64,000 nucleotides of DNA from Syntrophaceae bacterium (GTDB lineage Bacteria; Desulfobacterota; BSN033; UBA1163), in the NCBI GenBank assembly GCA_013388645.1, contig JACAEV010000100.1:24934-88933 (forward strand). Direction: 5' to 3'. A model generated the notes under the pieces. The model worked only from the letters and a program-made list of their open reading frames with translations. It was not told where the DNA came from and did no database searches. Made by a program: the position numbers and the translations under genes. This document shows, piece by piece, positions 30,369 through 46,378 of the stretch; position 1 is the stretch's first letter, and each line of letters starts with the position of its first letter.

Positions 30369-30371
30369 AGA

Positions 30372-30725: not shown

Positions 30726-30831
30726 TCCCTTTCTTTTTTACACTCACTACTGAACCATACGCAGTAATCGAATATATCCCGGTCTTCTCCTGAGGGGCCC
30801 CGCTAACAGCGCCCGTCTGACTGAAGGATTT

Positions 30832-32769: not shown

Positions 32770-32916
32770 GGTTATTAAAATAATCCTGAAAAGATGATTG
32801 TCTCCGCTTCCGAGGAAGGCAAACTTTTTCTGCCTCGACGGAATGAGGAGCCGTTGTCAAAGAAGGACTTCCACCCTTGTCGATGCCTTCTGAGATCTTC
32901 AGGTGAGCATTTCGGT

Positions 32917-33384
32917 TTATTTATTCTTCTCTCCTCTCCTTACGATTAAGACAGGAATACGGATATCTTTATGGACCACTCCATAAGTGACACTCCCAAG
33001 GAATACAGCGGCCAGAGCACTCTTCCCATGGGAACCCAGAACAATAAGATTACATTTCGATCGTTCTGCTTCTTTTATAATCTCTTCACTAGGATGCCCA
33101 TTGGAGATAACCCCACGGCATGAAACATTTTTCTTTTCGCAAAGCTTCTTGACTTTAGCGACATCCGCTTTAGCTGCTTCTCTGAGAAATTCCTCCATCG
33201 GTTCCGTGATATTCGTCACTGTCATCTCAGGGGGCGCAGTATAAAGCGTTGAGAAAGATCGATTATCCATCACGCTCACTACGGTGATAGAAGCGCCAAG
33301 TTGCTTTGCAAGGTCTACCGCATATCGACTCGCTTTTAGGGCTGTCTCTGAACCATCGGTGGCTACAAGAATTTTTGAGATCAT
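32917..33384 (-). CDS. Universal stress protein
   Basis: KILVATDGSETALKASRYAV ... LIVLGSHGKSALAAVFLGSVTYGVV. UspA fold. Confidence 0.8.
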   Translation of the reverse strand: MISKILVATDGSETALKASRYAVDLAKQLGASITVVSVMDNRSFSTLYTAPPEMTVTNITEPMEEFLREAAKADVAKVKKLCEKKNVSCRGVISNGHPSEEIIKEAERSKCNLIVLGSHGKSALAAVFLGSVTYGVVHKDIRIPVLIVRRGEKNK

Positions 33385-33406
33385 GATTTTCTCCTTTTAT
33401 GAATTC

Positions 33407-33958
33407 TTATTCTCTGCTCCTATTCACCAAATTTGAGGACATAGTAACGATTTTATCCTCGATATATAACTCCTTAAATCCATTTTTCTCACAGAAAGAT
33501 AAGGCTACACGATTATCGAACCTAACCTTTGCGATGATTTCATCCACGAATGAAAACTTTTTTAAATTTTGTGCTAAGAGGTTCAATACCTTGCTTCCGT
33601 AACCAAGATGCCTCGTGTTTTCTTCAAAAATGAACAGCCCGATTTCAACAGATTTGCGAAACTTGAGATTATACAAGCCGATAAACCCAATTCTTCTCGA
33701 ATCAATAAGAATGCAGTAAGTACATGCGAAGGTTCTTTTAATCCACCACCATACGGGAAGCCATGAGGAGTAGATAGGTTTTTTCAAATTGTTTACAACC
33801 AAAAAGTCTTCTCTCTTAAATCCTTCACTCAAAAATGGACCATCCAAAATCCGTACCGGCCTCAACTTAATAGGAGGAGTTGCCATATATCTTGGAATGC
33901 GTACATAGAACATTCTTAATCCTGCTTTGCAAGTGGCTCTTATCTGACTCGTAGTCAT
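33407..33958 (-). CDS. GNAT-family N-acetyltransferase (start uncertain)
   Basis: RHLGYGSKVL (R/Q-x-x-G-x-G/A acetyl-CoA motif) and ALSFCEKNGFK. Possible later start at MATPPIKL. Confidence 0.6.
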   Translation of the reverse strand: MTTSQIRATCKAGLRMFYVRIPRYMATPPIKLRPVRILDGPFLSEGFKREDFLVVNNLKKPIYSSWLPVWWWIKRTFACTYCILIDSRRIGFIGLYNLKFRKSVEIGLFIFEENTRHLGYGSKVLNLLAQNLKKFSFVDEIIAKVRFDNRVALSFCEKNGFKELYIEDKIVTMSSNLVNRSRE

Positions 33959-34032
33959 AACTGATGCAGAGGAGAAGCCTTCATAAGCATAGCCAAAGAC
34001 CCCTTCAACTTTTTAACCCGGTTTTACTTGGT

Positions 34033-34287
34033 TTATTCTTCAAAATGCGGAGTTTCCGCCTTGCTTGCCACGACTTTCCCTGTAGCCGTGTCAAGAACGT
34101 AATACCCACTGCGAGCTTTGACTCCCTCTGCCTCGACCGCCCATGCAGAGATCTGATACCTTCCTTTCTTTTCATCTTCAGAAACTGCCAAAGCCGCCTT
34201 TGAAGAAAAGACGTTGTTTAATAGGTTGAGGAGAAGCAGTATCGAAACGATTCCTAAGAAGACTTTTGTTATTCGATCGGTTTCCAT
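34033..34287 (-). CDS. Small N-anchored or secreted protein (84 aa), hypothetical
   Basis: AAGGGAGG RBS. N-terminal hydrophobic helix FLGIVSILLLLNLL. Lies immediately downstream of the Cyc2-like gene. Confidence 0.45.
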   Translation of the reverse strand: METDRITKVFLGIVSILLLLNLLNNVFSSKAALAVSEDEKKGRYQISAWAVEAEGVKARSGYYVLDTATGKVVASKAETPHFEE

Positions 34288-34379
34288 AAGTGACCTCCCT
34301 TTTTGTTATACATTTTTTTCCTTCATTCAATGTTCCTTTTTCAGCTCTGACATCCAAACCATTGCCCTACCTTCAATGA

Positions 34380-35759
34380 TCAAAACATGAACCAAAGCAG
34401 GAAATAGAGCGTGTTGTTGTCAGAAGCGTCCCGGCCAAACCCGTCATAGTTCGAATGAGAGCCGTTGAATTTGTTGTAAAGTGTATACTGCAGGGAACAT
34501 TTGAGTGAAAGAAAATTGGTAATTTCGAGTCTTTGATAGTCTAATTCGAAAATCAAACCGTTGCTGTTCGGGCTGCCCGTTCGACTCCCATCCGCGGGGC
34601 CCGGCGCATAGAGCAAGATGTCTTTATTTCCGGTGGTGGAAAAAAATCCGGCTGACCCGCCGAAATCACCGATCGGGCTCCGGTAGGTGTAATGGCCGTG
34701 AATTTTGAAGGTATTCAAGTGGCCTGACTTCTTTGCGGTATTTCCTAAATCAAAACTCGCATTCCAATCTTGATACTCATGAATCCAGGTTGAATGCAAT
34801 GTAAAGATATGGCTTTTCACAATGTATTGATACTGGGTATCGAGGCCGATATCCGTGAAACGATCCGTAGGACCATGATGCATTCCCTCAGGATAGATAT
34901 CGGCGGTGAGGCCAAAGGTCCCCAGGGATAAGTAATGCTTTCTCCACTGTCGCTGGAGGACCAGGCGCCAATAGGGAACGATACCGTCCGTCTCCATATC
35001 CACGGTCGTGCCAGCGCCCAAGATTTTTGTGATCCCGTGGTCCGTCGTCCTGTACAAAGCCCCTCCCGCATAGATCATGTTATTCCAGAACACATAGGCT
35101 CCCATTCCGCCTACTTGCTGGTCTAAGGTCCCATCAATAATCGTACTTGCGGCAGGCGTTGGGGCGATGGGCGATGCAGCGTACGGGAAGCCGAAGGCGG
35201 GCGTACTGTTCCATACATCCTGGAGGGTCGGACTATTGTTGACCGTCACGCCATAGATCAGCTGCTTATTCCAAAGAGTCGTCGTATTTGCATATCGGAT
35301 ATCCGTCATATCCAGCATGACATCATTTTCTGCCCCGTCGAAGGTTCCCTGAACGAAAGCCCCAAGATGCCTGTAGATTCGTCCTCCATAGTACAAGCTC
35401 ATCTCTTGAGGTAAGCTCAGGACATTGTTATCCGTCGAGGTGACATGAGTGGCCCAATTGTCCTCGATCGATTTTCGCGGCAAGTCCTTCTTCAAATGGG
35501 TAAAAGAGAGTTGCACCAGACCAGCGAGGGGTGGCGGAAACTCATATGGTTTAGTGCTCTTGCTGATGGAATAACCTGTCAATTTAAAAAATCGTCCAAA
35601 AGGGGTGAGCTCAGGCCACATGGTATGGCAGGTCGTACAGGACATACCCGTTTGACGCGCGAAACTTGGCAAGGCATGGGTGTTGGGAGGTAAAAATAGC
35701 ATCCATCCCCCAATTAAGACCCATCCGATCCATGTAGTTCTTAACATCTTCCATAACAT
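34380..35759 (-). CDS. Cyc2-like fused monohaem cytochrome c / outer-membrane beta-barrel porin
   Basis: Signal peptide. A single CTTCH haem motif about 15 residues into the mature protein. The remaining ~400 residues show alternating amphipathic, aromatic-rich strands and end ...LYFLLWFMF (C-terminal Phe), as outer-membrane barrels do. Length 459 aa matches the Cyc2 family. Confidence 0.6.
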   Translation of the reverse strand: MLWKMLRTTWIGWVLIGGWMLFLPPNTHALPSFARQTGMSCTTCHTMWPELTPFGRFFKLTGYSISKSTKPYEFPPPLAGLVQLSFTHLKKDLPRKSIEDNWATHVTSTDNNVLSLPQEMSLYYGGRIYRHLGAFVQGTFDGAENDVMLDMTDIRYANTTTLWNKQLIYGVTVNNSPTLQDVWNSTPAFGFPYAASPIAPTPAASTIIDGTLDQQVGGMGAYVFWNNMIYAGGALYRTTDHGITKILGAGTTVDMETDGIVPYWRLVLQRQWRKHYLSLGTFGLTADIYPEGMHHGPTDRFTDIGLDTQYQYIVKSHIFTLHSTWIHEYQDWNASFDLGNTAKKSGHLNTFKIHGHYTYRSPIGDFGGSAGFFSTTGNKDILLYAPGPADGSRTGSPNSNGLIFELDYQRLEITNFLSLKCSLQYTLYNKFNGSHSNYDGFGRDASDNNTLYFLLWFMF

Positions 35760-35806
35760 TTTATCCTCACCCCTTTCCTAAGGCTTCACACTCTTAGCAA
35801 TGCCCT

Positions 35807-36163
35807 CTATGAGCCAGGTTTAAAGGCATGAGCTATGTAGTCCATGACAGCCTTAATCTGATCAGGGTTTAGGCCCATGGGCGGCATCATCCCATGGCCG
35901 TGCTCGATGGTATTGGTAATTATTTTATTGATGTCTTTCTGCTTCCAGAACTTAGGGTCCGTGAAGCTGGCTGGTTTAGGATTAAAGGCAGCGGCAGCCG
36001 GGCCATTACCATTTCCTTTTGGACCATGGCACATCTGACACTTATTCTCATAAATGTCTTTTCCCCGCTGGACCTCACTTGCCTCAATTCCCTTGACGTT
36101 CCAGGCCGTAAATCCTAATCCCAGGACCATTCCTGCGGCGAAAAAAACAATCATTTTCTTCAC
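35807..36163 (-). CDS. Class I monohaem cytochrome c (periplasmic)
   Basis: GTG start with AAGGAGG 7 nt upstream. Signal peptide, CQMCH haem site and distal HGHGMMPPMG Met-ligand region. 118 aa. Confidence 0.8.
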   Translation of the reverse strand: MKKMIVFFAAGMVLGLGFTAWNVKGIEASEVQRGKDIYENKCQMCHGPKGNGNGPAAAAFNPKPASFTDPKFWKQKDINKIITNTIEHGHGMMPPMGLNPDQIKAVMDYIAHAFKPGS

Positions 36164-36176
36164 AAGGTTACCTCCT

Positions 36177-38633
36177 TTATACGGGTATCCTTTCTGAGAC
36201 CCCTACCTTGAACTCCTCCCATTGAACGTAAAGCATCCCGTTTTCTACCTTGAATGGCAGCGTATCAAGGGGGCGGGGTGCTGGCCCTTTAAGCACTTTT
36301 CCATCGATGGAATAAACACTCCCATGGCAGGGACACGCAAAGGTTTTGCTTTGTGGGTCCCAGTCATAATGGCAGCCAAGATGTGGACAGATTGGAGAAT
36401 AGACGGCAAACCCCGTGACCCCCGAGGACGATCGTTTGATGATCCAAACGCTATGTGTGACCGTCTCCATTAGATAAGCATCCTGGGTGTTGAAAGAAAA
36501 ATCTATATTTTGAGGTTTCCCTGTAGGCAATGAATGGATATCCGCTATTTTAGTCCAGGTAAGTTTTTTTCTTTGAAAGGATGGGCCAATCAAATTTCCG
36601 ATAAGAGGAATCCCAATAGCCAAGGTGATCAGAGAGCTTAACCCTCCTATCATCATCTTCAGAAAACTGCGGCGTGTTGTTTCGTGCGTCCCAGCCGAGT
36701 GGCTCCCTTTTTTCGTGTCTGAACCGGAGGGAGTTCCTTTCGCCTTCACTCCCTTCAGAATCCAAAGTCCACCAATGACAATGATAAAGGTCGCTGCGAC
36801 CAGCCAGAAGAAGAGATGGGGTTGAAGGCCGGGACGGACGAGCTTGGCCCGATCCACTCCGTTCAGCCACAGGATATAGGCTTCTATATTTGCGATGGTT
36901 GGCTGGTTAAGCGAGTTAGAATCTCCAAAGGGAAGCATCTGTAGAGCTGGATTCGGACCTTCTGGTCTTGAACCATGCAGGATAAAACGGTCGATGTTAT
37001 CCGTAAAAGTTCGAGGGTCTTTGTTGAAAAGCTCTGGATCAATTGGATTGAGGGGGGGAACGGTTCCATCCTCTGAGCCTGGATTTGGAACTTTACCCGT
37101 TCCTTTTGGACCGTGGCAGGCTTCACAGTGTTGTTGGAACAGAATGGCTCCTCGACCAAAACTTCCGATAACATTTGCCGCTGGCCCCGGCTGTCCGTGA
37201 GGGCCGACGATTAATTTTTCCTGTATGGTCATTGTGGCCATCTGTGGCATAGGAGGGACTGCTGAAGAAGATTTGCCTGAAGCTAAATTTTGTAGATAAT
37301 CGACGATCTCATTGAGCTGATGGTCGGTGGCTGAGGAAAAAGCGGGCATGATCGTATTCAGGTTGTGTTTTTTCGGATCTCGAATCTGGGTGATCAACCA
37401 TTGTCGCGATTTACCTTTTAACGATTCGGAAGATAATTCAGGCCCCACCGTACCTCCTTGACCATTTACCCGGTGGCATCGAATGCAGCCCATGGAATGG
37501 AAGAGTTGAGCCCCCTTCGAGGCACTTTCTGATATTTGAGTAGGTGGGATGGTTTGGGATAATGGAGTCTGAGAACTTGCGGTTTCTGGTTTGCTGAAAT
37601 ATCCTACAACGGCAAGGATAATCACCCATGCAACAAAAATCAGGTAACCTGACATTGTGATCGGGCGGCGAGATGGGTTTCGCTCTGGGGTTCGATCTAT
37701 GAAAGGAAGAAATACGAGGAGTAACGTGACGAAAAGGGGAATCCCGACTGTACCAATGGGTTCAAGCCTTCCGGGAAAGGCTTTCAGGGTTTGATACAAA
37801 AAGAGAAAATACCACTCCGGTTTAGGAACATAGGAGGTATCCATAGGATTCTTGGGACCAGCAATAGGGGTGCGAATATATGCGGCAAGCCCCACTAAGA
37901 TCACAAAGACAAACGTAATGACTACCGTATCTTTAAAAACCTGATCTGGCCAGAAACGCCCGATGATTTTGCGTTTCTCTTGATTCCAGGGACCTGAAAT
38001 TCCAGATTGGCGAAAAGCGATGATATGTAAGATCACTAAAACGAAAACGATTCCAGGAAGAATCGCTACATGGAGCACAAAGAACCGGGAGAGCGTCATC
38101 TGTCCAAGGTTTGGACCACCGCGCAACAAATTTGTTGCCAGATCACCTAAGTAGGGCACCGTACCTGCCATACTGGTACCTACTTCGACCTCCCAATAAC
38201 CTCTTTGGTCCCATGGGAGAACCGGTCCTGTGAATCCCAGCGCCAGCGTACATATCAAGAGTCCTACACCGAGCAGCCATGTCAGTTGCCGTGGTTGTTT
38301 GTAAGCGCCCCAGATAAAGACACGGGACATGTGAAGTCCCACCAGAATGATCATGGCAGCTGCTCCCCAGTAATGGAGCCCATGGATCAACCAACCAAAA
38401 GGAACTTCGATACGCAGGTAATTCAGGCTATCGTAGCCATGACTGATCGTAGGAACAAAGTAGAAGAGCTGCCACAAACCTGTGATGACTTGAATGAGAA
38501 AAGTCGTTAAGACCGAACTGCCGAAGATGTAAACAAAGCTATCTCCTCCGGGCATTTCCTCTTCAAGGCCTAAACGAATCAATCCATTAAGAGGCCAACG
38601 CTCATTAATCCAACGCATCACACGTGAAACCAT
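36177..38633 (-). CDS. Single-polypeptide cytochrome bc complex: cytochrome b6 plus subunit IV, dihaem cytochrome c and Rieske iron-sulfur protein in one frame
   Basis: There is no stop codon across the whole ORF. Bis-His pairs HYWGAAAMIILVGLH and HVAILPGIVFVLVILH, and the PEWYFLFLYQ motif. Two CxxCH (CIRCH, CEACH) with MPAF / MLPFG ligands. An extra TM helix, then a TRRSFLK twin-arginine-like motif, a TM anchor and Rieske boxes CPHLGC...CPCHGS. The track ORF starts at a TTG at 38654. The ATG at 38633 (MVSRVMRWINERWPLNG) lies 18 nt after the S10 stop and is the more likely start. Confidence 0.8.
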   Translation of the reverse strand: MVSRVMRWINERWPLNGLIRLGLEEEMPGGDSFVYIFGSSVLTTFLIQVITGLWQLFYFVPTISHGYDSLNYLRIEVPFGWLIHGLHYWGAAAMIILVGLHMSRVFIWGAYKQPRQLTWLLGVGLLICTLALGFTGPVLPWDQRGYWEVEVGTSMAGTVPYLGDLATNLLRGGPNLGQMTLSRFFVLHVAILPGIVFVLVILHIIAFRQSGISGPWNQEKRKIIGRFWPDQVFKDTVVITFVFVILVGLAAYIRTPIAGPKNPMDTSYVPKPEWYFLFLYQTLKAFPGRLEPIGTVGIPLFVTLLLVFLPFIDRTPERNPSRRPITMSGYLIFVAWVIILAVVGYFSKPETASSQTPLSQTIPPTQISESASKGAQLFHSMGCIRCHRVNGQGGTVGPELSSESLKGKSRQWLITQIRDPKKHNLNTIMPAFSSATDHQLNEIVDYLQNLASGKSSSAVPPMPQMATMTIQEKLIVGPHGQPGPAANVIGSFGRGAILFQQHCEACHGPKGTGKVPNPGSEDGTVPPLNPIDPELFNKDPRTFTDNIDRFILHGSRPEGPNPALQMLPFGDSNSLNQPTIANIEAYILWLNGVDRAKLVRPGLQPHLFFWLVAATFIIVIGGLWILKGVKAKGTPSGSDTKKGSHSAGTHETTRRSFLKMMIGGLSSLITLAIGIPLIGNLIGPSFQRKKLTWTKIADIHSLPTGKPQNIDFSFNTQDAYLMETVTHSVWIIKRSSSGVTGFAVYSPICPHLGCHYDWDPQSKTFACPCHGSVYSIDGKVLKGPAPRPLDTLPFKVENGMLYVQWEEFKVGVSERIPV

Positions 38634-38650
38634 GTATCGTTCTTTCAAGT

Positions 38651-40222
38651 TCAATCCTTGATTTTAGGGATAGCCTCTCGAAAAAAGTTGGCCACATCGG
38701 TCTTTAGTTTTTTCAAGGCTGGCAGATGAGTATACATCTGATGCCCTGCTTCATAAAAGGTTAGAGTTAGGTTCTTACGCAACTTCGCATCGAGACCAAG
38801 ATGGTTTGCGGCATATTTCGATGCAAAAAAAGGCGTATCAAGATCATAGTAGCCGCTTGCAATGAGGACTTTTAAATATTTATTTTCGCTCATCGCCTGG
38901 TGTAAAGTGTCTACGACATTCACGTATCCCAATCCTCCGGTGTCGGAGCTCCAATTCCAGGATTCGTTGACTTTCATAGAGAGAATTTCGTAAGGGAGAT
39001 CGGTTTCGTACTTAAGCTCTTTCCTCACATAATCGTTCCAGGTCGCCATGAGAAGGCCTGTCACCAAAAACACACTGGGGTCCTCAATGAAGTCCTGAGG
39101 GGTATATTTGCCTGTAATCCGAGAGTCTAAGACACCGATCCGGAGATCCTCCTGGCGAAGCAACTCTTTTGTAAAATCACCCCGGCTGATACGTAATTTG
39201 GATTTCTGTATGGACGTTTCAGAAAGACCTGTATATCTCGTTAACTTTTCAACAACTCTATTTCGTTCGGGCTCTGAGAGGAGATCCCCTTTCGCCAAAG
39301 CGACTAAATATTCATTCAATGCAAATTCTTCTGCTTCATCCATCGTTTTTTGAAAATTTGATTGGAATTCAGGCGATAACTTATGATGGTACCAGGCTGT
39401 TGTGGCATAGGTAGGCAGAAACAGGATGTAGGGTAAATCATTTCCCGCGGTAAAAACGATGGTCTGAAAGTTGAGAGCTTCTGAGATTAAAATCAGTCCA
39501 TTGAGATTGATAGCCAGTTTGTTTTGAAGATAGCTTGAAAGGCCGGCTGCCCTTGTTGTTCCATAACTTTCGCCCGCTATAAACTTTGGGGAAAGCCAGC
39601 GATTGTATTTTGTTAGATAAAGTCGAATGAATGCACCAACCGATTGAATATCCTCCTTTACGCCCCAGAACTTCTTCGGATCTTCGCCGGAGGCGGCACG
39701 ACTATAACCTGTACCAACCGGATCGATAAAGACAAGATCTGTGATATCGAGCCAAGTATATGCATTCTCAATCAATCGATATGGAGGAGGCAAAGCTTCC
39801 TTTTCCTCCTTCAAAAGCATACGTTTGGGGCCAAGGGCGCCAAGATGCAGAAAGACCGAGGCTGCCCCTGGCCCGCCATTAAACGCAAAAGTAATTGGAC
39901 GTTGAGATTTATCTTCCTCTTCATCTTTGATATAAGAGGTGAAAAATATGGTTGCCCTGAGTTTTCCTGCTTCATCTTTCATCGGCAGGTAACCAGCAAA
40001 TGCCTTATAATTCAGAGTCATTCCATTAATCTTGATAGAGTGATGGGTAATTGAAATTTTTTCTTCAGGTGGTTCTTTTGCCTTTGATTTGTCACGAGGT
40101 TGTGGTAAACTCTCGGGTGTTTCCAAAGCAACGAACAGATTTTTCGTTGCCTGACAGGCACCTAAAGAAAGGACACCGATGAGCAGGCTTGCAACCAAGG
40201 AAATGGAGACAATTTTTTTCAT
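38651..40222 (-). CDS. S10-family serine carboxypeptidase lipoprotein
   Basis: Lipobox LSLGAC. FAFNGGPGAASVFLHLGALGP and the GESYGT catalytic-Ser motif. Stop overlaps the bc ORF. Confidence 0.8.
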   Translation of the reverse strand: MKKIVSISLVASLLIGVLSLGACQATKNLFVALETPESLPQPRDKSKAKEPPEEKISITHHSIKINGMTLNYKAFAGYLPMKDEAGKLRATIFFTSYIKDEEEDKSQRPITFAFNGGPGAASVFLHLGALGPKRMLLKEEKEALPPPYRLIENAYTWLDITDLVFIDPVGTGYSRAASGEDPKKFWGVKEDIQSVGAFIRLYLTKYNRWLSPKFIAGESYGTTRAAGLSSYLQNKLAINLNGLILISEALNFQTIVFTAGNDLPYILFLPTYATTAWYHHKLSPEFQSNFQKTMDEAEEFALNEYLVALAKGDLLSEPERNRVVEKLTRYTGLSETSIQKSKLRISRGDFTKELLRQEDLRIGVLDSRITGKYTPQDFIEDPSVFLVTGLLMATWNDYVRKELKYETDLPYEILSMKVNESWNWSSDTGGLGYVNVVDTLHQAMSENKYLKVLIASGYYDLDTPFFASKYAANHLGLDAKLRKNLTLTFYEAGHQMYTHLPALKKLKTDVANFFREAIPKIKD

Positions 40223-40235
40223 CGATCTTAATCTC

Positions 40236-41735
40236 CTATCTCACCACCACTTGAACATTGCCCATATTTCCACTTCGATGGTCAAGGGCGAGCAACGTAA
40301 TTCTCTGATCAGGTTTTAATGCACTCACCAACTGTATGAAAGCTTCCACCCCTTTAATCGGTTGGTTGTTAATCTCCAAGATCATATCTCCTACCTCAAA
40401 ACCAGCCTTCCTAAGGGGACCCTTGGCTTCGAGCTGGTTGATCATGACTCCCTGACCCGCATCCAATCCATATTTCTCAGCCTCCTGTGGTGAGATCGCC
40501 CGAACCTCTGCCCCTAAACGTCCCTTCACGTAGGTAGCTAAGATTTTTGTCGATTCCTCCAGATTCCCCAATTTGATAGTTAGTTCCACTTTTTTACCAT
40601 TCCTTAAGACCGTTACCTTCGTCTCACTGCCAATGGGTGTGTTCGCCACCTCATTTCGAAACGTTCCAGAGTCAGGGATCTCTTTACCGCGATAAGCAAC
40701 CACTACATCATTTTTCTTTAGTCCTCCTTTTTCTGCCGGACCTCCCTTGACTACATCAGCGACGAGCGCCCCTTTCGTTGTCTCTACATGAACGCTCTTG
40801 GCTAAATCCGGAGTTAAATCCTGTATACTGATACCCAGCCACCCTCGCTCCACTTTTCCATGGGTAATGAGCTGTTTCGCCACATGAAGGGCCATATTAC
40901 TGGGGATGGTGAAACCAATCCCCTCGAAACCTCCAGACTCTGAAGCAATCGCAGCATTCACACCAATCACCTCTCCTCTAAGGTTCAACAAAGGCCCCCC
41001 ACTGTTTCCTGGATTGATGGCCGCATCCGTCTGTAAGAAGTCCTGGTAACTGCTTGGGTCTGTGATGCCCTGTCGATGTTTAGCACTGATGATACCCTGT
41101 GTAACGGTCTGGTCTAAACCCCGAGGATGTCCAATGGCCACCACCCATTCTCCTACTTCCACTTTGTCGGAATCCCCGAAGGTCACAGTTGGGAGAGGTT
41201 CTTTGGCCGAAATCTGGATCACAGCCAGGTCTGTCTTAGAATCAGTTCCCACCAGTTTTGCCGGATACCTATTCCCATCCGAGAGCAGCACTTCGATCTT
41301 GGTTGCCCCTCCTGCGACATGATGATTCGTCAGGATATGACCCTGAGTATCTATAATCATCCCAGTTCCCAATCCTTTCAGTTCCCTTTTAAACTTACGA
41401 GGCATTTTAGGAATATCAAAGAATCTCCTAAAAAAAGGGTCACTTTCAAAGGGCAGCAAAGGATTCATGACCTCTTGCCTCTCCGTTACTTCAATGTGCA
41501 CGACCGCCGGAATTGCCTGCTTAGCCACTCTTATGATGCCGGTGCTCAAATCGATAGATCCTTTTGAACCCTCTGAAGTTTGCCCAGTTACCGATTCTAC
41601 AAACGGTTTCTTGGCTTGCTCCTCCTGCTTCGCACATGCGGTAACCGTTAAGAAAGTGAATGCGGTCCCCAAGGTTAAAACCATTAGAAGTAAGATATAG
41701 CCCCAATGATGCGATCTGCGAATACTGTTTAACAT
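40236..41735 (-). CDS. htrA: DegP/HtrA periplasmic serine endoprotease with two PDZ domains
   Basis: Catalytic-triad contexts TNHHVAGGA, DLAVIQ and GNSGGPLLNLRGEVIGVNAAI. Two PDZ segments (ISIQDLTPDLAKS..., GVMINQLEAKGPLRKAGFEVGDMIL). Confidence 0.9.
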   Translation of the reverse strand: MLNSIRRSHHWGYILLLMVLTLGTAFTFLTVTACAKQEEQAKKPFVESVTGQTSEGSKGSIDLSTGIIRVAKQAIPAVVHIEVTERQEVMNPLLPFESDPFFRRFFDIPKMPRKFKRELKGLGTGMIIDTQGHILTNHHVAGGATKIEVLLSDGNRYPAKLVGTDSKTDLAVIQISAKEPLPTVTFGDSDKVEVGEWVVAIGHPRGLDQTVTQGIISAKHRQGITDPSSYQDFLQTDAAINPGNSGGPLLNLRGEVIGVNAAIASESGGFEGIGFTIPSNMALHVAKQLITHGKVERGWLGISIQDLTPDLAKSVHVETTKGALVADVVKGGPAEKGGLKKNDVVVAYRGKEIPDSGTFRNEVANTPIGSETKVTVLRNGKKVELTIKLGNLEESTKILATYVKGRLGAEVRAISPQEAEKYGLDAGQGVMINQLEAKGPLRKAGFEVGDMILEINNQPIKGVEAFIQLVSALKPDQRITLLALDHRSGNMGNVQVVVR

Positions 41736-41757
41736 GATGTTCCTCCTTTCTATTTTC

Positions 41758-42126
41758 TCATTGATCCTTAAACATTTTCTTCAATACTGCGGTAATTTCT
41801 GCCAAATCGGTGTTGATATCCGTTAAGAAACGTGGTCGTAACCGATGCGCCAAAGCTACGATTTCAGCCTCTTTACTTGGAACAAGAAGAATGATGCGGA
41901 TATTTTGGAAGAGGTGAGCAATAGAAAGAATATTTTTGAGATCTTCCTGATTGGATACGAGAAGAACTGCAACATCCGAATTTTCTGTAGGGTGTCTTAA
42001 ACTCTGTGCTAGATTATCTATTGTTCTGTAAACTGCCATTTCAACCTCTGGAAGATGCGTTTTAATTAACTTTTCAAGTATAAGTCCGGAACGATCACTC
42101 GCTCCGAAGTATAGGAAAATCTTCAT
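41758..42126 (-). CDS. Hypothetical 122-aa protein, possible degenerate receiver-like (CheY-fold) domain
   Basis: Alternating beta/alpha pattern (KIFLYFG / LILEKLIKT / EVEMAVY / VAVLLVS). No acidic pocket and no phospho-acceptor Asp. First gene of the htrA-bc-cyc2 string. Confidence 0.5.
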   Translation of the reverse strand: MKIFLYFGASDRSGLILEKLIKTHLPEVEMAVYRTIDNLAQSLRHPTENSDVAVLLVSNQEDLKNILSIAHLFQNIRIILLVPSKEAEIVALAHRLRPRFLTDINTDLAEITAVLKKMFKDQ

Positions 42127-42176
42127 CTATAGGACCTATTGATTGAAAAAGTTACCTCAATTTCATTGATTACTTA

Positions 42177-42192
42177 AACAAGAAGCGTGCCA
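42177..42192 (-). promoter_or_regulatory. Sigma54-like promoter (TGGCAC-N5-TTGTT) upstream of the 122-aa gene
   Basis: The minus-strand sequence reads TGGCACgcttcTTGTT. The -24 element is perfect. The -12 element has GT in place of the canonical GC. It lies about 50 nt upstream of the ATG at 42126. Confidence 0.3.
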
Positions 42193-42287
42193 ATACCTTA
42201 TTAAATTAGATTTCTCTTTATTTTTAATTAGTTAGGATTTTCTTGGGGGATGCTTTGAAGAGGTAAAGCAAGAAGTTCGTCTTATTT

Positions 42288-42306
42288 CACAGGATTAAAT
42301 CCTGTG
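42288..42306. promoter_or_regulatory. Perfect 9-1-9 palindrome CACAGGATTaAATCCTGTG (candidate enhancer / operator)
   Basis: Exact inverted repeat about 105 bp upstream of the sigma54-like promoter. No U-tract follows on either strand, so it is not a terminator. Confidence 0.3.
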
Positions 42307-42386
42307 GAACAGGAATTCATCCTTTTTAATAAGACTCTCTAAGGACTTATTTATAAGAAAATGTCCTTGTCTAATATCGTTGTTTT

Positions 42387-42600
42387 ATGTATCTTATTTT
42401 TATGGGCTGGTTTGATCGGGTCTTGGATCAATTAATCTCCTTTAGAATTTTTTTGCCTTTTATTCCACTCTTTGTGGCTTTCAATGCCCTGGGCATTCTT
42501 CCAATTTTTGCCTCCCTCACAACAGAGATGTCGGAGCCCGAGCAAAAAAGGGAAGTTAAGCGTAAAAGGATTCAGATATTATTCCTCTTTAGATTTTCGC
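42387..42600 (+). pseudogene. MarC/YhgN-family membrane protein gene remnant (N-terminal ~60 codons only)
   Basis: MGWFDRVLDQLISFRIFLPFIPLFVAFNALGILPIFASLTTEMSEPEQKREVKRK follows the MarC/YhgN N-terminal pattern (…DPLGNLPIFMSVLKHTEPKRRR…). The frame then runs into the 3' end of the convergent mgtA gene and degenerates. Intact family members are about 200 aa. Confidence 0.4.
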
Positions 42601-45126
42601 TCACAATAAATTTACCTTTCTGTAAAAGAATCTTTTTACCACCTCCGCTACCACTACGTAGACACCGACAATCATTCCCATCAATAAAATGAACATACCT
42701 GATAGAGGCTGGAACCCTAAAAGACTTCCAAGAGGAGAGTAGGGGAAGAGAAATGTTACGCCAATAATCAATAATGTTGTCATTGTGAGATATCTTCCTG
42801 GTCTGCTCTTAAAAAAGGGCCTCCGAGTCCGAATGACGAGGACAACTACCGAAGCTGAAATCACTGATTCTAAGAACCATCCCGTACGAAACATTTCTGG
42901 CTTAGCATGAAGAATAAATAGCAATACACCGAAGGTGATGAAGTCAAAGACCGAACTCACGGGCCCAAATGTAATCATGAAATTCCGGATGAACTTGATG
43001 TCCCAGCGTTGAGGCTTTTCAACCATTTCATGATCAACGCTGTCTGTCGCAATGGTCATCTCTGGGAAATCTGTTAGCAAATTCGTAAGGAGAATCTGTT
43101 TCGGCAACATAGGAAGGAAAGTCAGGAAAAGGGAAGCTCCTGCCATGCTGAACATATTTCCAAAGTTAGCGCTGGTCGCCATGAACATATATTTGAGCGT
43201 ATTGGCAAACGTTCTTCTTCCCTCCCGGACGCCTTCCACCAATACTGCCAACTCCTTTTCAAGGAGCACAATGTCAGCAGCCTCTTTCGCCACATCTACC
43301 GCGCTATCGACGGAAATTCCAACATCGGCAGCATGAAGTGCAGAGGCATCATTGATTCCGTCCCCCATATAACCTACTACATTTCCAGCCTTTTTTAAGG
43401 CGAGGATGATCCGTTCTTTTTGATTGGGCTCCACTTCGGCAAAGATTTCTACATCATTGACTCTTCGGAATAGGGCTTCATCGCTCATCTCATGAATATC
43501 TCCACCCGTAACGAAGTGTGGATTTGTTAATCCTACTTGTTGGCTAACATTGATAGCCACTAAAGAGTTGTCTCCAGTAATAATCTTCAATGAAATACCC
43601 AGATGATTCAACTGATGAATGGTCTCGATAATTCCTGCCTTAGGTGGATCAAAGAGGATTAAAAATCCCAAAAATATCATGTCGATTTCATGATCCTTTG
43701 TGATATGAGAAATAGGCCCTATATCCTTGTAAGCGATCCCTAAGACGCGAAATCCCTGATGGCTGATTTCCTCAAACCGTTGACGAATCTCCTCCTGTAG
43801 AAGAGCGATATCTACGATTTTCCCTTCACAATTTTCTGCCGTTGAACAGCTCTCCAAAACATTTTTGCAAGCCCCTTTCGTAATCATCAGATTCCGTTTC
43901 TCTTTGCAGACCACTATGCTTAATCGTTTACGAATAAAATCATAAGGCACTTCATCTCGTTTTTCGTAACCCGTCAGATCAAAGGGATGGTGTGTCCGAA
44001 TGGCTTCGTCAATGGGATTTCTAAAGCCTGTTTCATAAATAGAATTGAGATAAGCATAGAACAGTACTTTTTCGCTTTCCCTCCCATGAACATCGATTGC
44101 AGAATGTAGCTGCACCACCCCTTTTGTCAATGTCCCGGTTTTATCAGAGCAGAGCACGTTTATGCTGCCAAAGTTCTCAATGGAAGCCAGGCGTTTCACA
44201 ATTACTTTTTTAAGGGCCATGCCTTTAGCACCGCGGGCGAGGTTGACACTGATAATGGCAGGAAGCAGTTGCGGAGTTAGGCCAACTGCCAGGGCCAAGG
44301 CAAATAGAAATGATTCTAAGACTGGCCGTTTGAAATAGACATTGGTGGCAAAGATGGCAATCACAAGGACCAAGGTCACTTCCATCAGAAGATACCCAAA
44401 TCGCCTGACACCGCGCTCAAACTCTGTCTCCAGAGGCCTGAGCTTCAGCCGTTCGGATACTTTGCCAAATTCGGTGTCCTTTCCTGTGCGGACGACGACC
44501 GCTCTTCCACTACCACTGACCACATGGGTTCCCATGAAGAGAGAGTTTGTCCGCTGATGAAGTGGCGTTTCCCCTGGTAGAACCCCAATCGTTTTTTCTA
44601 CAGGATAGGTTTCACCTGTCAATGTTGCTTCATCGACAAATAGGTCCTTAGATTCCAGAATGAGGCAATCTCCAGGGATAATATCTCCCGAATTGAGGAT
44701 GAGAACATCTCCTGGGGCAATCTCTTCCACGGGGACTTCTTTTGAATATCCATTGCGAAGAACCAAGGTTTTGTTCCGGACAAGAGATATTAATTTATTG
44801 ACAGCATCCACGGCTCCTCGCTCTTGCCAGAATCCGAGTAAACCGCTGATCAAGACGATCACCAAGATGATGAGGGCATCCGACGGATCATGTAGAGAAA
44901 GGGACAATCCCGCTGCAAAGAGAAGGATGATAATAATCGGGCTCTTGAATTGAGAAAGCAGGAGGGTCAGGGCGTCTGATCGCTTTTTCGGCTTGAGTAG
45001 ATTGAATCCATAACGATTCAGTCGTTGTTTGACCTCATCCTCTGTCAAGCCCTGTGATGTTGTTCGAAGTTGCTGAATTAGTTCTTCAGGGGAAAGGCTC
45101 CAAAAAGACCTTAAATTTCGATCCAA
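42601..45126 (-). CDS. mgtA: Magnesium-translocating P-type ATPase (type IIIB, MgtA-like)
   Basis: 841 aa. LLLSQFKSPIIIILL N-terminal signature, CSDKTGTLTKG phosphorylation site, GDGINDASALHAADVGISV hinge. Confidence 0.9.
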   Translation of the reverse strand: MDRNLRSFWSLSPEELIQQLRTTSQGLTEDEVKQRLNRYGFNLLKPKKRSDALTLLLSQFKSPIIIILLFAAGLSLSLHDPSDALIILVIVLISGLLGFWQERGAVDAVNKLISLVRNKTLVLRNGYSKEVPVEEIAPGDVLILNSGDIIPGDCLILESKDLFVDEATLTGETYPVEKTIGVLPGETPLHQRTNSLFMGTHVVSGSGRAVVVRTGKDTEFGKVSERLKLRPLETEFERGVRRFGYLLMEVTLVLVIAIFATNVYFKRPVLESFLFALALAVGLTPQLLPAIISVNLARGAKGMALKKVIVKRLASIENFGSINVLCSDKTGTLTKGVVQLHSAIDVHGRESEKVLFYAYLNSIYETGFRNPIDEAIRTHHPFDLTGYEKRDEVPYDFIRKRLSIVVCKEKRNLMITKGACKNVLESCSTAENCEGKIVDIALLQEEIRQRFEEISHQGFRVLGIAYKDIGPISHITKDHEIDMIFLGFLILFDPPKAGIIETIHQLNHLGISLKIITGDNSLVAINVSQQVGLTNPHFVTGGDIHEMSDEALFRRVNDVEIFAEVEPNQKERIILALKKAGNVVGYMGDGINDASALHAADVGISVDSAVDVAKEAADIVLLEKELAVLVEGVREGRRTFANTLKYMFMATSANFGNMFSMAGASLFLTFLPMLPKQILLTNLLTDFPEMTIATDSVDHEMVEKPQRWDIKFIRNFMITFGPVSSVFDFITFGVLLFILHAKPEMFRTGWFLESVISASVVVLVIRTRRPFFKSRPGRYLTMTTLLIIGVTFLFPYSPLGSLLGFQPLSGMFILLMGMIVGVYVVVAEVVKRFFYRKVNLL

Positions 45127-45517
45127 CCCACAAAGCTCCTCTCATCAAATCAATATCTTTGTTAAAGCCACAATTACCCATTCGTTGCAAGCTTTGTACT
45201 CAGCAGACCTCTGAAAAAGAAATTCAGACACAACAATGCAATGCGGTGATATGCAACTCTACGTACCCCTGCTTGAAATATACCCATTAACATAGTATCC
45301 CAATTTGGTGCGCTAGTAAAGCGAATATTCTGTTTATGGTGAGATGTTGAGAAGGTTTAAAATTAACATTTTTAAGAATAGCTCAGACATAATTTCATCC
45401 ATCATATTCAAATAGGCACGCCTCAACAGGGATGGGCATGACAAAATTCGAACCTTAATCTTTGGCTTTGAACCAATTGGTCAAGTCCTATTGATTTCCG
45501 AGAAGACAGAGCTTTCC

Positions 45518-45991: not shown

Positions 45992-46050
45992 CGGGTGAAC
46001 CCCTCCTTAATTTTGATAAAGATATTAAGAATAATTTTAAATACTGGGTT

Positions 46051-46090
46051 GAATGAAAATCTCAGCCCCATCCCGCCAAAGCAGGACGGG
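46051..46090 (-). terminator. Probable intrinsic terminator after the SPW-like gene
   Basis: Minus-strand hairpin CCCCGUCC-UGCUUUGGC-GGAUGGGG (one G-U pair), followed by CUGAGAUUUUCAUU. Confidence 0.35.
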
Positions 46091-46097
46091 GCCAATG

Positions 46098-46310: not shown

Positions 46311-46378
46311 ATTGGTTCACCTCCTTCCAATTTTTGAGTCTGCGACTCTTTTTTCCCATTTGGACTGACCGCTTTTCC

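What the first reader, a model, noticed from the sequence alone, without database searches (positions are those of the whole stretch)
36177..38654. A whole cytochrome bc complex (b6/subunit IV, dihaem c, Rieske) in one 825-aa open reading frame
The sequence shows one uninterrupted frame carrying, in order:
- a b6-type cytochrome b: haem-ligand pairs HYWGAAAMIILVGLH and HVAILPGIVFVLVILH, the latter with the extra residue typical of b6 and Bacillus-type enzymes;
- a subunit-IV segment with PEWYFLFLYQ;
- two class I cytochrome c domains (CIRCH...MPAF and CEACH...MLPFG);
- a further hydrophobic helix (LFFWLVAATFIIVIGGLWIL) and a short polar loop;
- TRRSFLKMMIGGLSSL, a Rieske-type twin-arginine signal-anchor;
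- the Rieske cluster boxes CPHLGC and CPCHGS.

From established knowledge, bc1 / b6f / Bacillus-type complexes encode these parts as three or four polypeptides. Known fusions are partial, for example subunit IV fused to cytochrome c in Bacillus QcrC. I infer that the extra helix after the c domains returns the chain to the cytoplasm so the Rieske anchor can insert N-in, C-out. That makes the fusion topologically coherent and argues against an annotation artefact.

One puzzle remains. The RR motif is internal, so the folded Fe-S domain could not use a cleavable Tat signal in the usual way. The S10 carboxypeptidase stop overlaps the start, and the cytochrome c RBS overlaps the stop.
Basis: partly seen in the sequence, partly recalled or inferred. 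Interest (0 to 1): 0.85.

Follow-up and report, generated by a model that had tools for sequence, protein, structure and literature searches.

The report
Whole cytochrome bc complex in one gene
One conserved gene encodes all three catalytic parts of a respiratory cytochrome bc complex (cytochrome b, a two-haem cytochrome c and the Rieske iron-sulfur protein), which is a rare natural fusion that must be assembled by two different membrane-insertion systems acting on a single chain.

Summary
The ORF at 36177..38654 (-) is uninterrupted. Its likely true start is the ATG at 38633, giving 818 aa. It carries a b6-like cytochrome b, subunit IV, two class I cytochrome c domains, an eighth TM helix, an internal TRRSFLK twin-arginine motif, a ninth TM helix and a Rieske domain.

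It is not an artefact. Twelve full-length fused clusters (61-86% identity) come from independent assemblies, and every segment, linker included, is under purifying selection.

Most relatives keep a separate Rieske gene upstream. The closest relatives have it downstream. In two of them it lies in frame behind a single TGA stop, so one substitution creates the fusion. Fused forms sit at three places in a rough tree.

The internal Tat "puzzle" has a precedent in the Sec-to-Tat handover of actinobacterial Rieske proteins. All the sequence rules for that handover are met here, but with eight Sec helices and two haem c domains ahead of the signal.

The gene heads a conserved cassette: monohaem cytochrome c, then a Cyc2-type outer-membrane cytochrome-porin. 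This suggests a link between the quinone pool and extracellular iron.

I found no published description. Verdict: a new variant of a known kind. Whether the chain stays uncleaved, depends on Tat, or which way electrons flow is untested.

The parts
36177..38633 (-). Fused bc gene, 818 aa from the ATG at 38633. The first possible start is the TTG at 38654, which would give 825 aa. The stop is TAA at 36177-36179.
   Evidence: ORF list. Homologue N-termini begin MFSRV... DNA at the start and stop.
37983..38633 (-). Cytochrome b6-like module, residues 1-217, helices A-D. Haem ligands are H87/H101 and H188/H203. There is no haem cn cysteine.
   Evidence: Pfam Cytochrome_B 1.8e-46. Cytochrome b6 chains of the PDB at 1e-54, with b6 Cys35 aligned to Ile. 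The four His are invariant in 53 sequences.
37596..37952 (-). Subunit IV-like module, residues 228-346, helices E-G, with the Qo motif PEWY at 272-275.
   Evidence: Pfam Cytochrom_B_C 1.4e-13. TM scan. P272/W274 invariant and E273 at least 90% conserved.
37278..37532 (-). Class I cytochrome c domain 1, residues 368-452 (CIRCH 383-387, axial Met in IMPAF, M429).
   Evidence: Pfam Cytochrom_C / Cytochrome_CBB3. C383, C386, H387, M429 and P430 are invariant.
36834..37184 (-). Class I cytochrome c domain 2, residues 484-600 (CEACH 503-507, axial Met in QMLPFG, M566).
   Evidence: Second Cytochrom_C stretch. C503, C506, H507 and M566 are invariant.
36759..36815 (-). TM8, residues 607-625 (LFFWLVAATFIIVIGGLWI). 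It is the strongly hydrophobic C-terminal anchor of the dihaem c module and is ancestral, not added.
   Evidence: Hydrophobicity scan, crude Hessa sum -2.8. Unfused relatives end just after this helix.
36657..36758 (-). Cytoplasmic linker, residues 626-659, ending in the internal twin-arginine motif TRRSFLK (652-658).
   Evidence: Sequence. RR is kept in 13 of 13 fused homologues. dN/dS is 0.19-0.23.
36600..36656 (-). TM9, residues 660-678. This is the Rieske signal-anchor, marginally hydrophobic and followed by QRKK.
   Evidence: Crude Hessa sum +1.4 and 3 K/R within the 15 residues after the helix. It aligns to the anchor of b6f PetC.
36180..36566 (-). Rieske 2Fe-2S domain, residues 690-818 (CPHLGC ... 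CPCHGS).
   Evidence: Pfam Rieske 1.9e-09. NCBIfam b6f iron-sulfur subunit 6.5e-19, below the family cut-off. PDB PetC 1.3e-15. dN/dS 0.16-0.17.
35807..36163 (-). Monohaem class I cytochrome c, 118 aa, with an N-terminal signal or anchor. Its AGGAGG ribosome-binding site abuts the stop of the fused gene.
   Evidence: Pfam Cytochrom_C 4.1e-14. Present directly downstream in every fused locus with sequence there. DNA.
34380..35759 (-). Cyc2-type fused cytochrome-porin candidate, 459 aa: signal peptide, single CTTCH at 41-45, 16-strand beta-barrel.
34033..34287 (-). Conserved 84-aa protein with one N-terminal hydrophobic helix; last gene of the cassette. Function unknown.
   Evidence: No Pfam hit. 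Found after the Cyc2-like gene only in the fused loci L002, L003, L004 and L087.

Best explanation
This is a genuine, selectively maintained gene fusion that puts a complete Rieske/cytochrome b complex on one 818-aa polypeptide.

Origin:
- In most relatives the Rieske gene lies upstream of a gene that already fuses cytochrome b, subunit IV and a dihaem cytochrome c with a C-terminal anchor.
- In one lineage, whose members with an organism name are Thermodesulfobacteriota or 'delta proteobacterium' MAGs, the Rieske gene sits directly downstream.
- Loss of the intervening stop codon then joined the cytoplasmic end of the c anchor (TM8) to the cytoplasmic N-terminus of the Rieske Tat signal-anchor (TM9). 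This needs only one substitution where the two frames coincide.

Assembly (inferred):
- Sec/YidC inserts TM1-8 co-translationally and exports the two c domains unfolded, for haem attachment in the periplasm.
- The weakly hydrophobic TM9, followed by positive charges, is not inserted by Sec.
- The Rieske domain folds and receives its 2Fe-2S cluster in the cytoplasm.
- The conserved internal twin-arginine motif then hands TM9 and the folded domain to the Tat translocase.

Function (inferred):
- A dimeric quinol:cytochrome c oxidoreductase exchanges electrons, through the co-transcribed monohaem cytochrome c, with a Cyc2-type outer-membrane cytochrome-porin.
- This links the quinone pool to extracellular iron. 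The direction of electron flow is not determined.
For: Shown:
- One ORF with all domains above the Pfam cut-offs.
- All cofactor ligands are invariant.
- Twelve full-length fused clusters, 43 member sequences counting two partial clusters, at 61-86% identity. They come from JGI and NCBI assemblies, including a 290-kb contig. Two more fused metagenome loci were found.
- dN/dS is 0.06-0.41 in every segment against two fused homologues, with the linker at 0.19-0.23 and Rieske at 0.16-0.17.
- Unfused relatives end just after TM8.
- The 57 more distant loci scored have Rieske upstream. The six closest GTDB loci have it downstream, as a clearly orthologous gene 25-65 nt (three loci) or about 210-600 nt (three loci) after the b-c gene.
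- In L086 and L001 the b-c gene ends in TGA, followed in the same frame by AGGAGG, ATG and the Rieske gene. The linker of the fused sister P0014 resembles that Rieske N-terminus.
- Fused forms sit at three positions in a neighbour-joining tree, interleaved with split forms.
- Eight TM helices precede TRRSFLK. TM9 has marginal hydrophobicity and 3-4 K/R follow it. RR is kept in 13 of 13 fused sequences.
- These are the features shown experimentally to drive Sec-to-Tat handover (PMC5449189; PMC3471235).
- Other internal-RR Rieske fusions exist in the same Rieske subfamily: P0244 (dihaem c-TM-RR-Rieske) and P0242 (polytopic N-terminal domain-RR-Rieske).
- The cassette is conserved in all fused loci. 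The same four modules (Cyc2-like, monohaem c, Rieske, b-c) occur in another order in a Bacteroidales genome, and a Cyc2-like gene lies beside the bc locus in 19 of 80 genomes.
- The Cyc2-type architecture is supported.
Against: - No expression, proteomic or biochemical data exist, so an uncleaved ~90-kDa protein is inferred only.
- The AlphaFold model of the whole chain is poor (pLDDT 54.8, pTM 0.40). It cannot show that TM8 and TM9 pack as in known complexes, or which monomer's Qo site the tethered Rieske head would serve.
- Tat and Ccm genes are not in the window and could not be checked in the genome.
- The TM9 features are shared with ordinary single-anchor Rieske proteins of this family. 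They are compatible with handover, not specific evidence for it.
- The hydrophobicity numbers use a simplified scale recalled from memory.
- The tree is a crude neighbour-joining tree, so the number of independent fusions is uncertain.
- The Cyc2 assignment rests on architecture, not on the FeGenie HMMs or an activity assay.
- The split close relatives lack a Cyc2-like gene within 8 kb.
Confidence: 0.78

Rival explanations
1. Assembly or sequencing artefact: a lost stop codon or an indel has merged two adjacent genes (b-c and Rieske) that are separate in the real organism.
For: Close relatives do have two genes in this order. In L086 and L001 a single stop codon separates them in frame. L001 shows that indel errors or pseudogenisation occur in such assemblies.
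Against: The same uninterrupted frame is found in 12 full-length clusters and in several independent assemblies from different projects. Synonymous divergence reaches dS 0.3-1.6, while the linker keeps its frame and length with dN/dS about 0.2. The window linker has no start codon with a well-spaced ribosome-binding site.
Confidence: 0.02
2. Polyprotein: the fused chain is made but is cut after insertion into separate subunits, as in Bradyrhizobium FbcH, where a cytochrome b-c1 precursor is cleaved (recalled from the literature, not checked here). The mature complex would then be conventional.
For: A precedent exists for bc subunits made as a precursor. Two periplasmic proteases, HtrA and a lipoprotein-type S10 carboxypeptidase, are encoded directly upstream in the window and in L004. 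The linker and the c1-c2 spacer are the least conserved parts.
Against: The b-c to Rieske junction lies in the cytoplasm, between two TM helices, where signal peptidase cannot act. No small-x-small cleavage motif follows TM7 or TM9. The protease neighbours are absent from the fused locus L002. The b/IV-to-c junction is uncleaved in the comparable Bacillus QcrC (own knowledge).
Confidence: 0.12
3. Two products from one gene: besides (or instead of) the full chain, an internal start just after TM8 yields a normal stand-alone Rieske protein with an N-terminal Tat signal. In the window this would be the GTG coding V628, which is Met in P0001, P0002 and P0008.
For: A Met or Val codon sits at the same position, right after TM8, in the window clade. 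It is preceded by the purine-rich AAGGGA.
Against: AAGGGA abuts the GTG with no spacer, which is unfavourable for initiation. P0010, P0013 and P0014 have no Met in the linker before RR. Purifying selection on the linker in the fused frame is not needed under this model.
Confidence: 0.06
4. The Rieske domain of the fused chain is exported by Sec like the rest of the protein, and the twin arginines are only a topological positive-inside signal.
For: The RR lies in a cytoplasmic loop, where positive charges are expected anyway. No Tat genes could be examined.
Against: The full consensus (S/T)RRxFLK, not just positive charge, is kept in 13 of 13 fused sequences. It is identical in kind to the N-terminal Tat signals of the split orthologues. 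Positive charges after TM9 oppose Sec insertion (PMC5449189). Bacterial Rieske proteins tested so far are Tat substrates (PMC5449189 introduction).
Confidence: 0.05

Closest known systems
Unfused orthologous complexes: Rieske gene plus a cytochrome b/subunit IV/dihaem c gene. These are widespread in Bacteroidota, Ignavibacteriota, Nitrospirota, Thermodesulfobacteriota, Planctomycetota and others.
   Same: Same modules and same cofactor motifs. The same C-terminal anchor follows the dihaem c. The identical type of Rieske Tat signal-anchor is present, and a Cyc2-like neighbour is often found.
   Different: There the Rieske protein is a separate gene, usually upstream. Here it is downstream and joined in frame, so the Tat signal is internal (residue 652 of 818).
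Actinobacterial three-TM Rieske proteins (Streptomyces Sco2149, Mycobacterium QcrA) and the other dual Sec-Tat targeted families (PMC3471235, PMC5449189).
   Same: An even number of Sec-inserted helices comes first. A consensus twin-arginine motif follows. Then comes a weakly hydrophobic last helix followed by positive charges and a cofactor-bearing external domain.
   Different: Those proteins have 2-4 helices before the motif and no other cofactor domain. This one has 8 helices, two b haems and two Sec-exported, covalently haem-bound c domains before it. Dependence on both pathways is untested here.
Partial natural fusions in bc complexes: long cytochrome b (b6 + subunit IV; PMC5600118), Bacillus QcrC (subunit IV + cytochrome c) and Bradyrhizobium FbcH (cytochrome b + c1, cleaved). 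The last two are from own knowledge.
   Same: Adjacent subunit genes whose termini lie on the same side of the membrane have merged. Fusion is recurrent and independent, as argued for b6 + subunit IV.
   Different: None of these includes the Rieske protein, the one subunit that needs a different export pathway.
Cytochrome b6f and Bacillus-type b6c complexes.
   Same: Best sequence matches in the PDB are cytochrome b6 (1e-54) and PetC (1e-15). The helix D histidines are 14 residues apart.
   Different: Cytochrome b and subunit IV are one chain. The haem cn cysteine is replaced by Ile. The acceptor is a dihaem class I cytochrome c, not cytochrome f.
Cyc2 / Cyt572-based iron oxidation chains of Acidithiobacillus, Leptospirillum and Zetaproteobacteria (PMC8406198, PMC10654088).
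   Same: The chain runs from an outer-membrane monohaem cytochrome-porin, through a small periplasmic cytochrome c, to a bc complex.
   Different: Here all parts are in one short operon with the bc complex. The related genomes that carry an organism name are Thermodesulfobacteriota MAGs, a phylum with many anaerobes (own knowledge). No oxidase gene is nearby. Membership in the Cyc2 sequence family and the direction of electron flow were not tested.

Membership tests
Rieske/cytochrome b (bc1/b6f) complexes | Cytochrome b with two His pairs on helices B and D that ligate haems bL and bH | tested here: met
   H87/H101 and H188/H203 are invariant in 53 sequences. Pfam Cytochrome_B 1.8e-46.
Rieske/cytochrome b (bc1/b6f) complexes | Qo-site PEWY-type motif in the subunit IV part | tested here: met
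   PEWY at 272-275. P and W are invariant and E is at least 90% conserved. One fused homologue, L085, has PAWY.
Rieske/cytochrome b (bc1/b6f) complexes | Rieske 2Fe-2S boxes CxHxGC and CxCHGS, including the disulfide cysteines | tested here: met
   CPHLGC and CPCHGS are present in all fused sequences. Pfam Rieske 1.9e-09.
Rieske/cytochrome b (bc1/b6f) complexes | Quinol:cytochrome c oxidoreductase activity with a Q cycle in a dimer | not testable with these tools
   The whole-chain structure prediction was too poor to assess even packing.
b6f / Bacillus b6c type | Fourteen residues between the helix D histidines | tested here: met
   HVAILPGIVFVLVILH, read directly from the sequence.
b6f / Bacillus b6c type | Haem cn cysteine (CxGG motif) in helix A | tested here: not met
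   b6 Cys35 aligns to Ile in YIFGSS.
b6f / Bacillus b6c type | Cytochrome b6 and subunit IV as separate polypeptides | tested here: not met
   A continuous frame runs through residues 217-228.
[quoted passage not shown] | Even number of TM helices before the motif, N-in, and exactly one TM helix after it | tested here: met
   Eight hydrophobic helices lie before residue 652 and one after. The same helices appear in the AF2 secondary structure.
[quoted passage not shown] | Consensus twin-arginine motif immediately before the last helix | tested here: met
   TRRSFLK at 652-658. RR is kept in 13 of 13 fused homologues.
[quoted passage not shown] | Low hydrophobicity of the last helix plus positive charges on its C-terminal side | tested here: met
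   The crude Hessa sum is +1.4 for TM9 against -2.8 for TM8, and 3 K/R lie within the 15 residues after TM9. The scale was recalled from memory and ignores position dependence.
[quoted passage not shown] | Experimental dependence of the last helix on Tat and of the earlier helices on Sec | not testable with these tools
   Needs reporter fusions in tat+ and tat- hosts.
Cyc2 fused cytochrome-porins (for ORF 34380..35759) | Signal peptide, a single CXXCH near the N-terminus, and length of at least 365 aa | tested here: met
   N-terminal helix 2-22. The only CxxCH is CTTCH at 41-45, invariant in 36 homologues. Length is 459 aa.
Cyc2 fused cytochrome-porins (for ORF 34380..35759) | 16-strand beta-barrel porin structurally similar to OprP (2O4V) | tested here: met
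Cyc2 fused cytochrome-porins (for ORF 34380..35759) | Score above threshold with the FeGenie Cyc2 HMMs, and placement in the Cyc2 tree | not tested
Pfam and NCBIfam give no hit.
FbcH-type cleaved polyprotein | Internal cleavable signal peptide at the subunit junction | tested here: inconclusive
   No small-x-small motif follows TM7 or TM9, and the Rieske junction is cytoplasmic. Judged by eye only, with no predictor run.

The most novel reading that the evidence does not exclude
A natural single-chain bc complex. One uncleaved polypeptide would carry two b haems, two c haems and a 2Fe-2S cluster. It would be built by Sec/YidC, the cytochrome c maturation system and Tat acting in turn on the same molecule. 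The Tat signal would lie after eight Sec-inserted helices, which is the most complex dual Sec-Tat substrate proposed so far. The fusion would have arisen more than once by loss of a single stop codon, and it would be wired in one operon to a Cyc2-type outer-membrane cytochrome in a lineage related to Thermodesulfobacteriota MAGs. That would point to a compact route between the quinone pool and extracellular iron.
Probability: 0.5. Interest if true: 0.72.

Novelty: new variant of a known kind. Interest (0 to 1): 0.62.

Why it matters
1. It would be the first described natural fusion of all catalytic subunits of a Rieske/cytochrome b complex. That fixes stoichiometry and offers a minimal, single-gene system for expression and structural work.
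2. It tests the limits of the Sec-to-Tat handover model. A folded Fe-S domain must wait in the cytoplasm, tethered to a chain that is already inserted, haem-loaded and eight helices long.
3. In known complexes the Rieske anchor and head belong to different monomers. A covalent tether constrains how that swap can be made, which bears on assembly and on inter-monomer electron transfer.
4. The in-frame, one-stop-codon intermediates give an unusually clear picture of how such fusions arise.
5. The conserved module (Cyc2-like porin, cytochrome c, bc complex) across several phyla points to a widespread, unstudied route between the quinone pool and extracellular iron in soil and wetland bacteria.

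Tried and rejected
- Whole-chain AlphaFold2 model from a 53-sequence alignment: pLDDT 54.8, pTM 0.40. Only the secondary structure is usable. I did not run fold searches on it or draw packing conclusions.
- The window's own taxon is not established. The nearest named genomes are Thermodesulfobacteriota or 'delta proteobacterium' MAGs at 62-64% identity.
- Pfam scan of 20 other window genes for Tat, Ccm or oxidase genes: none found. They are housekeeping, transport and regulatory genes.
- Literature searches for a described b + c + Rieske fusion, or for the Cyc2-bc module: nothing found. Subscription-journal reviews of Rieske/cyt b diversity are not in the library, so prior mention cannot be excluded.
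- Idea that TM9's low hydrophobicity and flanking charges are adaptations to the fusion: rejected. Split and upstream Rieske proteins of the family have the same features.
- Idea that P0017 lacks a Rieske partner: rejected. The gene is there but is broken by two frameshifts in that assembly.
- First tree script timed out. It was rerun with a faster alignment and a simple distance tree.

Full report
**1. Observation**

The window holds one uninterrupted ORF at 36177..38654 on the minus strand, 825 aa counted from the first possible start, a TTG. All close homologues begin MFSRV.. at the position of the ATG at 38633, so the protein is most likely 818 aa. I use that numbering below.

The claimed overlap with the stop of the upstream S10 peptidase gene therefore applies only to the less likely TTG start.

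Pfam places the domains in this order, all above the curated cut-offs:
- Cytochrome_B (E 1.8e-46)
- Cytochrom_B_C (1.4e-13)
- two Cytochrom_C stretches (6.5e-17)
- Rieske (1.9e-09)

NCBIfam agrees at the superfamily level but reaches no family cut-off.

The cofactor motifs are all present:
- Haem b ligands H87/H101 with 13 residues between them, and H188/H203 with 14.
- PEWY at 272-275.
- CIRCH 383 with M429, and CEACH 503 with M566.
- CPHLGC and CPCHGS.

The b and c ligands are invariant in a 53-sequence alignment, and the Rieske boxes are present in all fused sequences.

A hydrophobicity scan finds nine membrane helices, seven in the b/subunit IV part:
- Residues 33-59, 82-107, 117-135, 184-202, 235-253, 293-311 and 325-343.
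- TM8 at 607-625, after the c domains.
- TM9 at 660-678, directly after TRRSFLK (652-658).

The predicted secondary structure has long helices at the same places and a beta-rich C-terminal domain. With the N-terminus inside, the c domains and the Rieske domain are both outside, and the 34-residue TM8-TM9 loop is inside.

**2. The fusion is real, not an artefact**

A search of about 5.8 billion proteins returned twelve full-length fused clusters (802-837 aa, 61-86% identity) and two partial ones. These hold 43 member sequences from JGI and NCBI assemblies, one on a 290-kb contig. The unfused relatives that follow in the list are 640-660 aa.

The DNA of four fused loci, L002, L003, L004 and L085, shows the same continuous frame, and L087 holds a fused gene cut off by the contig end.

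Codon comparison of the window with L085 and L004 gives these dN/dS values:

| Segment | dN/dS |
|---|---|
| Cytochrome b | 0.13 |
| Subunit IV | 0.06-0.09 |
| c domains | 0.12-0.25 |
| TM8 | 0.34-0.41 |
| Linker | 0.19-0.23 |
| Rieske domain | 0.16-0.17 |

Synonymous divergence is 0.3-1.6. The whole frame, junction included, is therefore maintained by selection.

**3. How the fusion arose**

Unfused relatives end a few residues after TM8. That helix is thus the ancestral C-terminal anchor of the dihaem c module, not an addition.

In 80 loci from species-representative genomes, the match to the query always included a Rieske part, but as a separate ORF:
- The 57 more distant loci that could be scored (40-55% identity: Bacteroidota, Ignavibacteriota, Nitrospirota, Syntrophales, Gemmatimonadota, Planctomycetota, Omnitrophota and others) have the Rieske gene upstream.
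- The six closest (62-64% identity, Thermodesulfobacteriota or 'delta proteobacterium' MAGs) have it downstream. It starts 25-65 nt after the b-c gene in three loci and about 210-600 nt after it in the other three. Its product is plainly orthologous to the fused Rieske part and starts with an ordinary N-terminal Tat signal, for example MTDNLCFAEPATSRRGFLK.

In L086 and L001 the b-c gene ends ..WVWMGRN-TGA. An AGGAGG and the ATG of the Rieske gene then follow in the same reading frame, so a single substitution in the stop codon would fuse them. The fused protein P0014, sister to that pair in the tree, has the linker ..ADDSVAAAPGEPVIPESQIARRRFLK. This resembles the Rieske N-terminus of L086, KADVSVPADPGGPVVLQSETTRRCFLK.

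In a simple neighbour-joining tree of the b-c part, all 'downstream, fused or no-Rieske' sequences form one clade apart from the 'upstream' set. Fused sequences sit at three positions, interleaved with split ones: the window clade, P0013 and P0014. Their linkers are not alike.

Recurrent fusion is the simpler reading. Fission would need a stop, a ribosome-binding site and a start to appear together. The tree is too crude to count events, however.

**4. The internal twin-arginine motif**

Bacterial Rieske proteins are inserted by Tat with a folded, cluster-bearing domain. Actinobacterial Rieske proteins have two Sec-inserted helices ahead of an internal twin-arginine motif and a Tat-inserted third helix (PMC3471235). 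The handover depends on low hydrophobicity of the last helix and on positive charges after it, and other families with four preceding helices follow the same rule (PMC5449189).

The fused protein meets each sequence criterion:
- Eight helices precede the motif, and the full consensus TRRSFLK is present.
- TM9 is marginally hydrophobic, with a crude summed Hessa value of +1.4 against -2.8 for TM8. The scale was recalled from memory and ignores position dependence.
- QRKK follows TM9.

RR is kept in 13 of 13 fused sequences. The same helix and charge features occur in the split and upstream Rieske proteins of the family. They are therefore a pre-adaptation that makes fusion tolerable, not a response to it.

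A search of 1.84 billion representatives with the Rieske part found only one full-fusion representative among the best 150. It also found two other internal-RR fusions:
- P0244: two cytochrome c domains, a TM helix, RR, a TM helix, then Rieske.
- P0242: a polytopic N-terminal domain that looks NarI-like by eye (not tested), then RR and Rieske.

The likely assembly order is inference:
1. Sec/YidC inserts TM1-8 and exports the c domains for periplasmic haem attachment.
2. TM9 is released on the cytoplasmic side.
3. The Rieske domain folds and receives its cluster.
4. Tat inserts TM9 with the folded domain.

No Tat or Ccm genes lie in the window, and the rest of the genome is not available.

**5. 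What kind of bc complex it is**

The best solved-structure matches are cytochrome b6 (1e-54) and the b6f Rieske subunit including its anchor (1e-15). No solved chain spans both.

The complex is b6-like in the 14-residue spacing on helix D. Otherwise it differs from b6f:
- Cytochrome b and subunit IV are one chain.
- The haem cn cysteine aligns to Ile.
- The acceptor is a dihaem class I cytochrome c.

The AlphaFold model of the whole chain is too poor (pLDDT 54.8, pTM 0.40) to say how TM8 and TM9 pack, or whether the tethered Rieske head would serve its own or the partner monomer. By simple geometry, a 34-residue loop is long enough for either (inference).

**6. Gene context**

Every fused locus with enough downstream sequence shows the same order: fused gene, monohaem cytochrome c (116-118 aa), a protein of 459-460 aa, then a protein of 82-84 aa.

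The 459-aa protein has no Pfam or NCBIfam hit and belongs to a large family of hypothetical proteins. Its architecture matches that given for Cyc2 fused cytochrome-porins, including the OprP template (PMC8406198):
- A signal peptide.
- A single invariant CxxCH at residues 41-45.
- A 16-strand barrel in the model (pTM 0.69).

Membership in the Cyc2 sequence family was not tested.

A homologue (39-45% identity) lies beside the bc genes in 19 of the 80 genome loci. In a Bacteroidales chromosome the order is Cyc2-like, monohaem c, Rieske, b-c. So the same four modules form a conserved unit across phyla. The split close relatives have no such gene within 8 kb.

This points to an electron path between an outer-membrane cytochrome and the quinone pool. 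It is comparable in outline to the Cyc2 or Cyt572 chains of iron oxidisers (PMC10654088). Whether it runs from quinol outward or from Fe(II) inward is open.

**7. Comparison with what is known, and novelty**

Partial fusions are familiar: b6 + subunit IV (PMC5600118), subunit IV + cytochrome c, and cytochrome b + c1 (the last two from my own knowledge). Dual Sec-Tat Rieske proteins are established.

I found no paper describing a fusion that includes the Rieske protein together with cytochromes b and c, nor the Cyc2-bc module. Reviews in subscription journals could not be searched.

I therefore file it as a new variant of a known kind. It is an ordinary Rieske/cytochrome b complex in chemistry, unusual in being one chain, and an extreme case for membrane-protein biogenesis.

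**8. Rivals**

- An assembly artefact is excluded by the conservation and selection data.
- Post-translational cleavage cannot be excluded. However, the Rieske junction is cytoplasmic and no signal-peptidase-like motif is evident. The upstream HtrA and S10 protease genes are conserved in L004 but not in L002.
- An internal start at the GTG or ATG just after TM8 is possible in the window clade. It has no spacer after its purine-rich stretch and no counterpart in P0010, P0013 or P0014.
- Sec export of the Rieske domain is unlikely, given the conserved full Tat consensus.

**9. Verdict**

Interest is moderate to high (0.62): the fusion is rare, apparently undescribed and experimentally tractable. 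Each ingredient has a precedent, though, and the key claims (uncleaved chain, Tat dependence, iron-linked function) remain untested.

Noticed in passing
window 34380..35759 (-): 459-aa protein with a signal peptide, a single invariant CTTCH at 41-45 and a predicted 16-strand barrel. This is the Cyc2-type fused cytochrome-porin architecture. It has no Pfam or NCBIfam hit and thousands of unnamed homologues, many of them beside bc genes in Bacteroidota and Ignavibacteriota.
   Followed up: partly
window 34033..34287 (-): 84-aa protein with one N-terminal hydrophobic helix. It is conserved (70-77% identity) as the last gene of the cassette, but only in loci with the fused bc gene. It has no family hit and its function is unknown.
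   Followed up: partly
L086 2060..2160; L001 4080..4980: Split relatives in which the b-c gene ends in TGA and the Rieske gene (AGGAGG + ATG) follows in the same frame. Stop-codon read-through could therefore already yield some fused protein. In L001 the Rieske gene is broken by two frameshifts, from either assembly errors or pseudogenisation.
   Followed up: partly
P0244 (480 aa) and P0242 (404 aa): Other fusions with an internal twin-arginine motif in the same Rieske subfamily. P0244 is dihaem cytochrome c + TM + RR + TM + Rieske. P0242 is a polytopic N-terminal domain that looks NarI-like by eye (not tested) + RR + TM + Rieske.
   Followed up: no
L085 (fused homologue, 86% identity): The Qo-site motif reads PAWY instead of PEWY, so the glutamate usually discussed as proton acceptor is missing in an otherwise very similar fused protein.
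   Followed up: no
P0015, P0081, P0097, P0100 and others; L067, L084: Relatives of 760-1080 aa in which the b/subunit IV part is followed by three or four cytochrome c domains separated by long Ser/Pro/Gln-rich spacers. Some have weak FixO-like Pfam hits.
   Followed up: no
window 38651..41735 (-): An HtrA/DegP-type protease (499 aa) and an S10 serine carboxypeptidase with a lipoprotein-like signal (523 aa) lie directly upstream of the fused gene on the same strand. The same pair precedes it in L004, and HtrA lies near the bc genes in L001, L006, L039 and L068. Any link to processing of the fused protein is unknown.
   Followed up: partly
window 1..64000: All the long ORFs that look like genes, including the 36 that gave a Pfam hit or lie in the cassette, are on the minus strand across the whole 64 kb. 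GC skew is negative in nearly every 2-kb bin.
   Followed up: no
window 1105..3975 (-): 956-aa ORF that combines a transaldolase domain (residues 16-365) with a phosphoglucose isomerase domain (458-669). It sits next to transketolase, glucose-6-phosphate dehydrogenase and 6-phosphogluconate dehydrogenase genes, which together form a pentose-phosphate cluster.
   Followed up: no
window 46379..48415 (-): Two adjacent proteins of about 300 aa, each with PRC-barrel domains. Their role is unknown.
   Followed up: no
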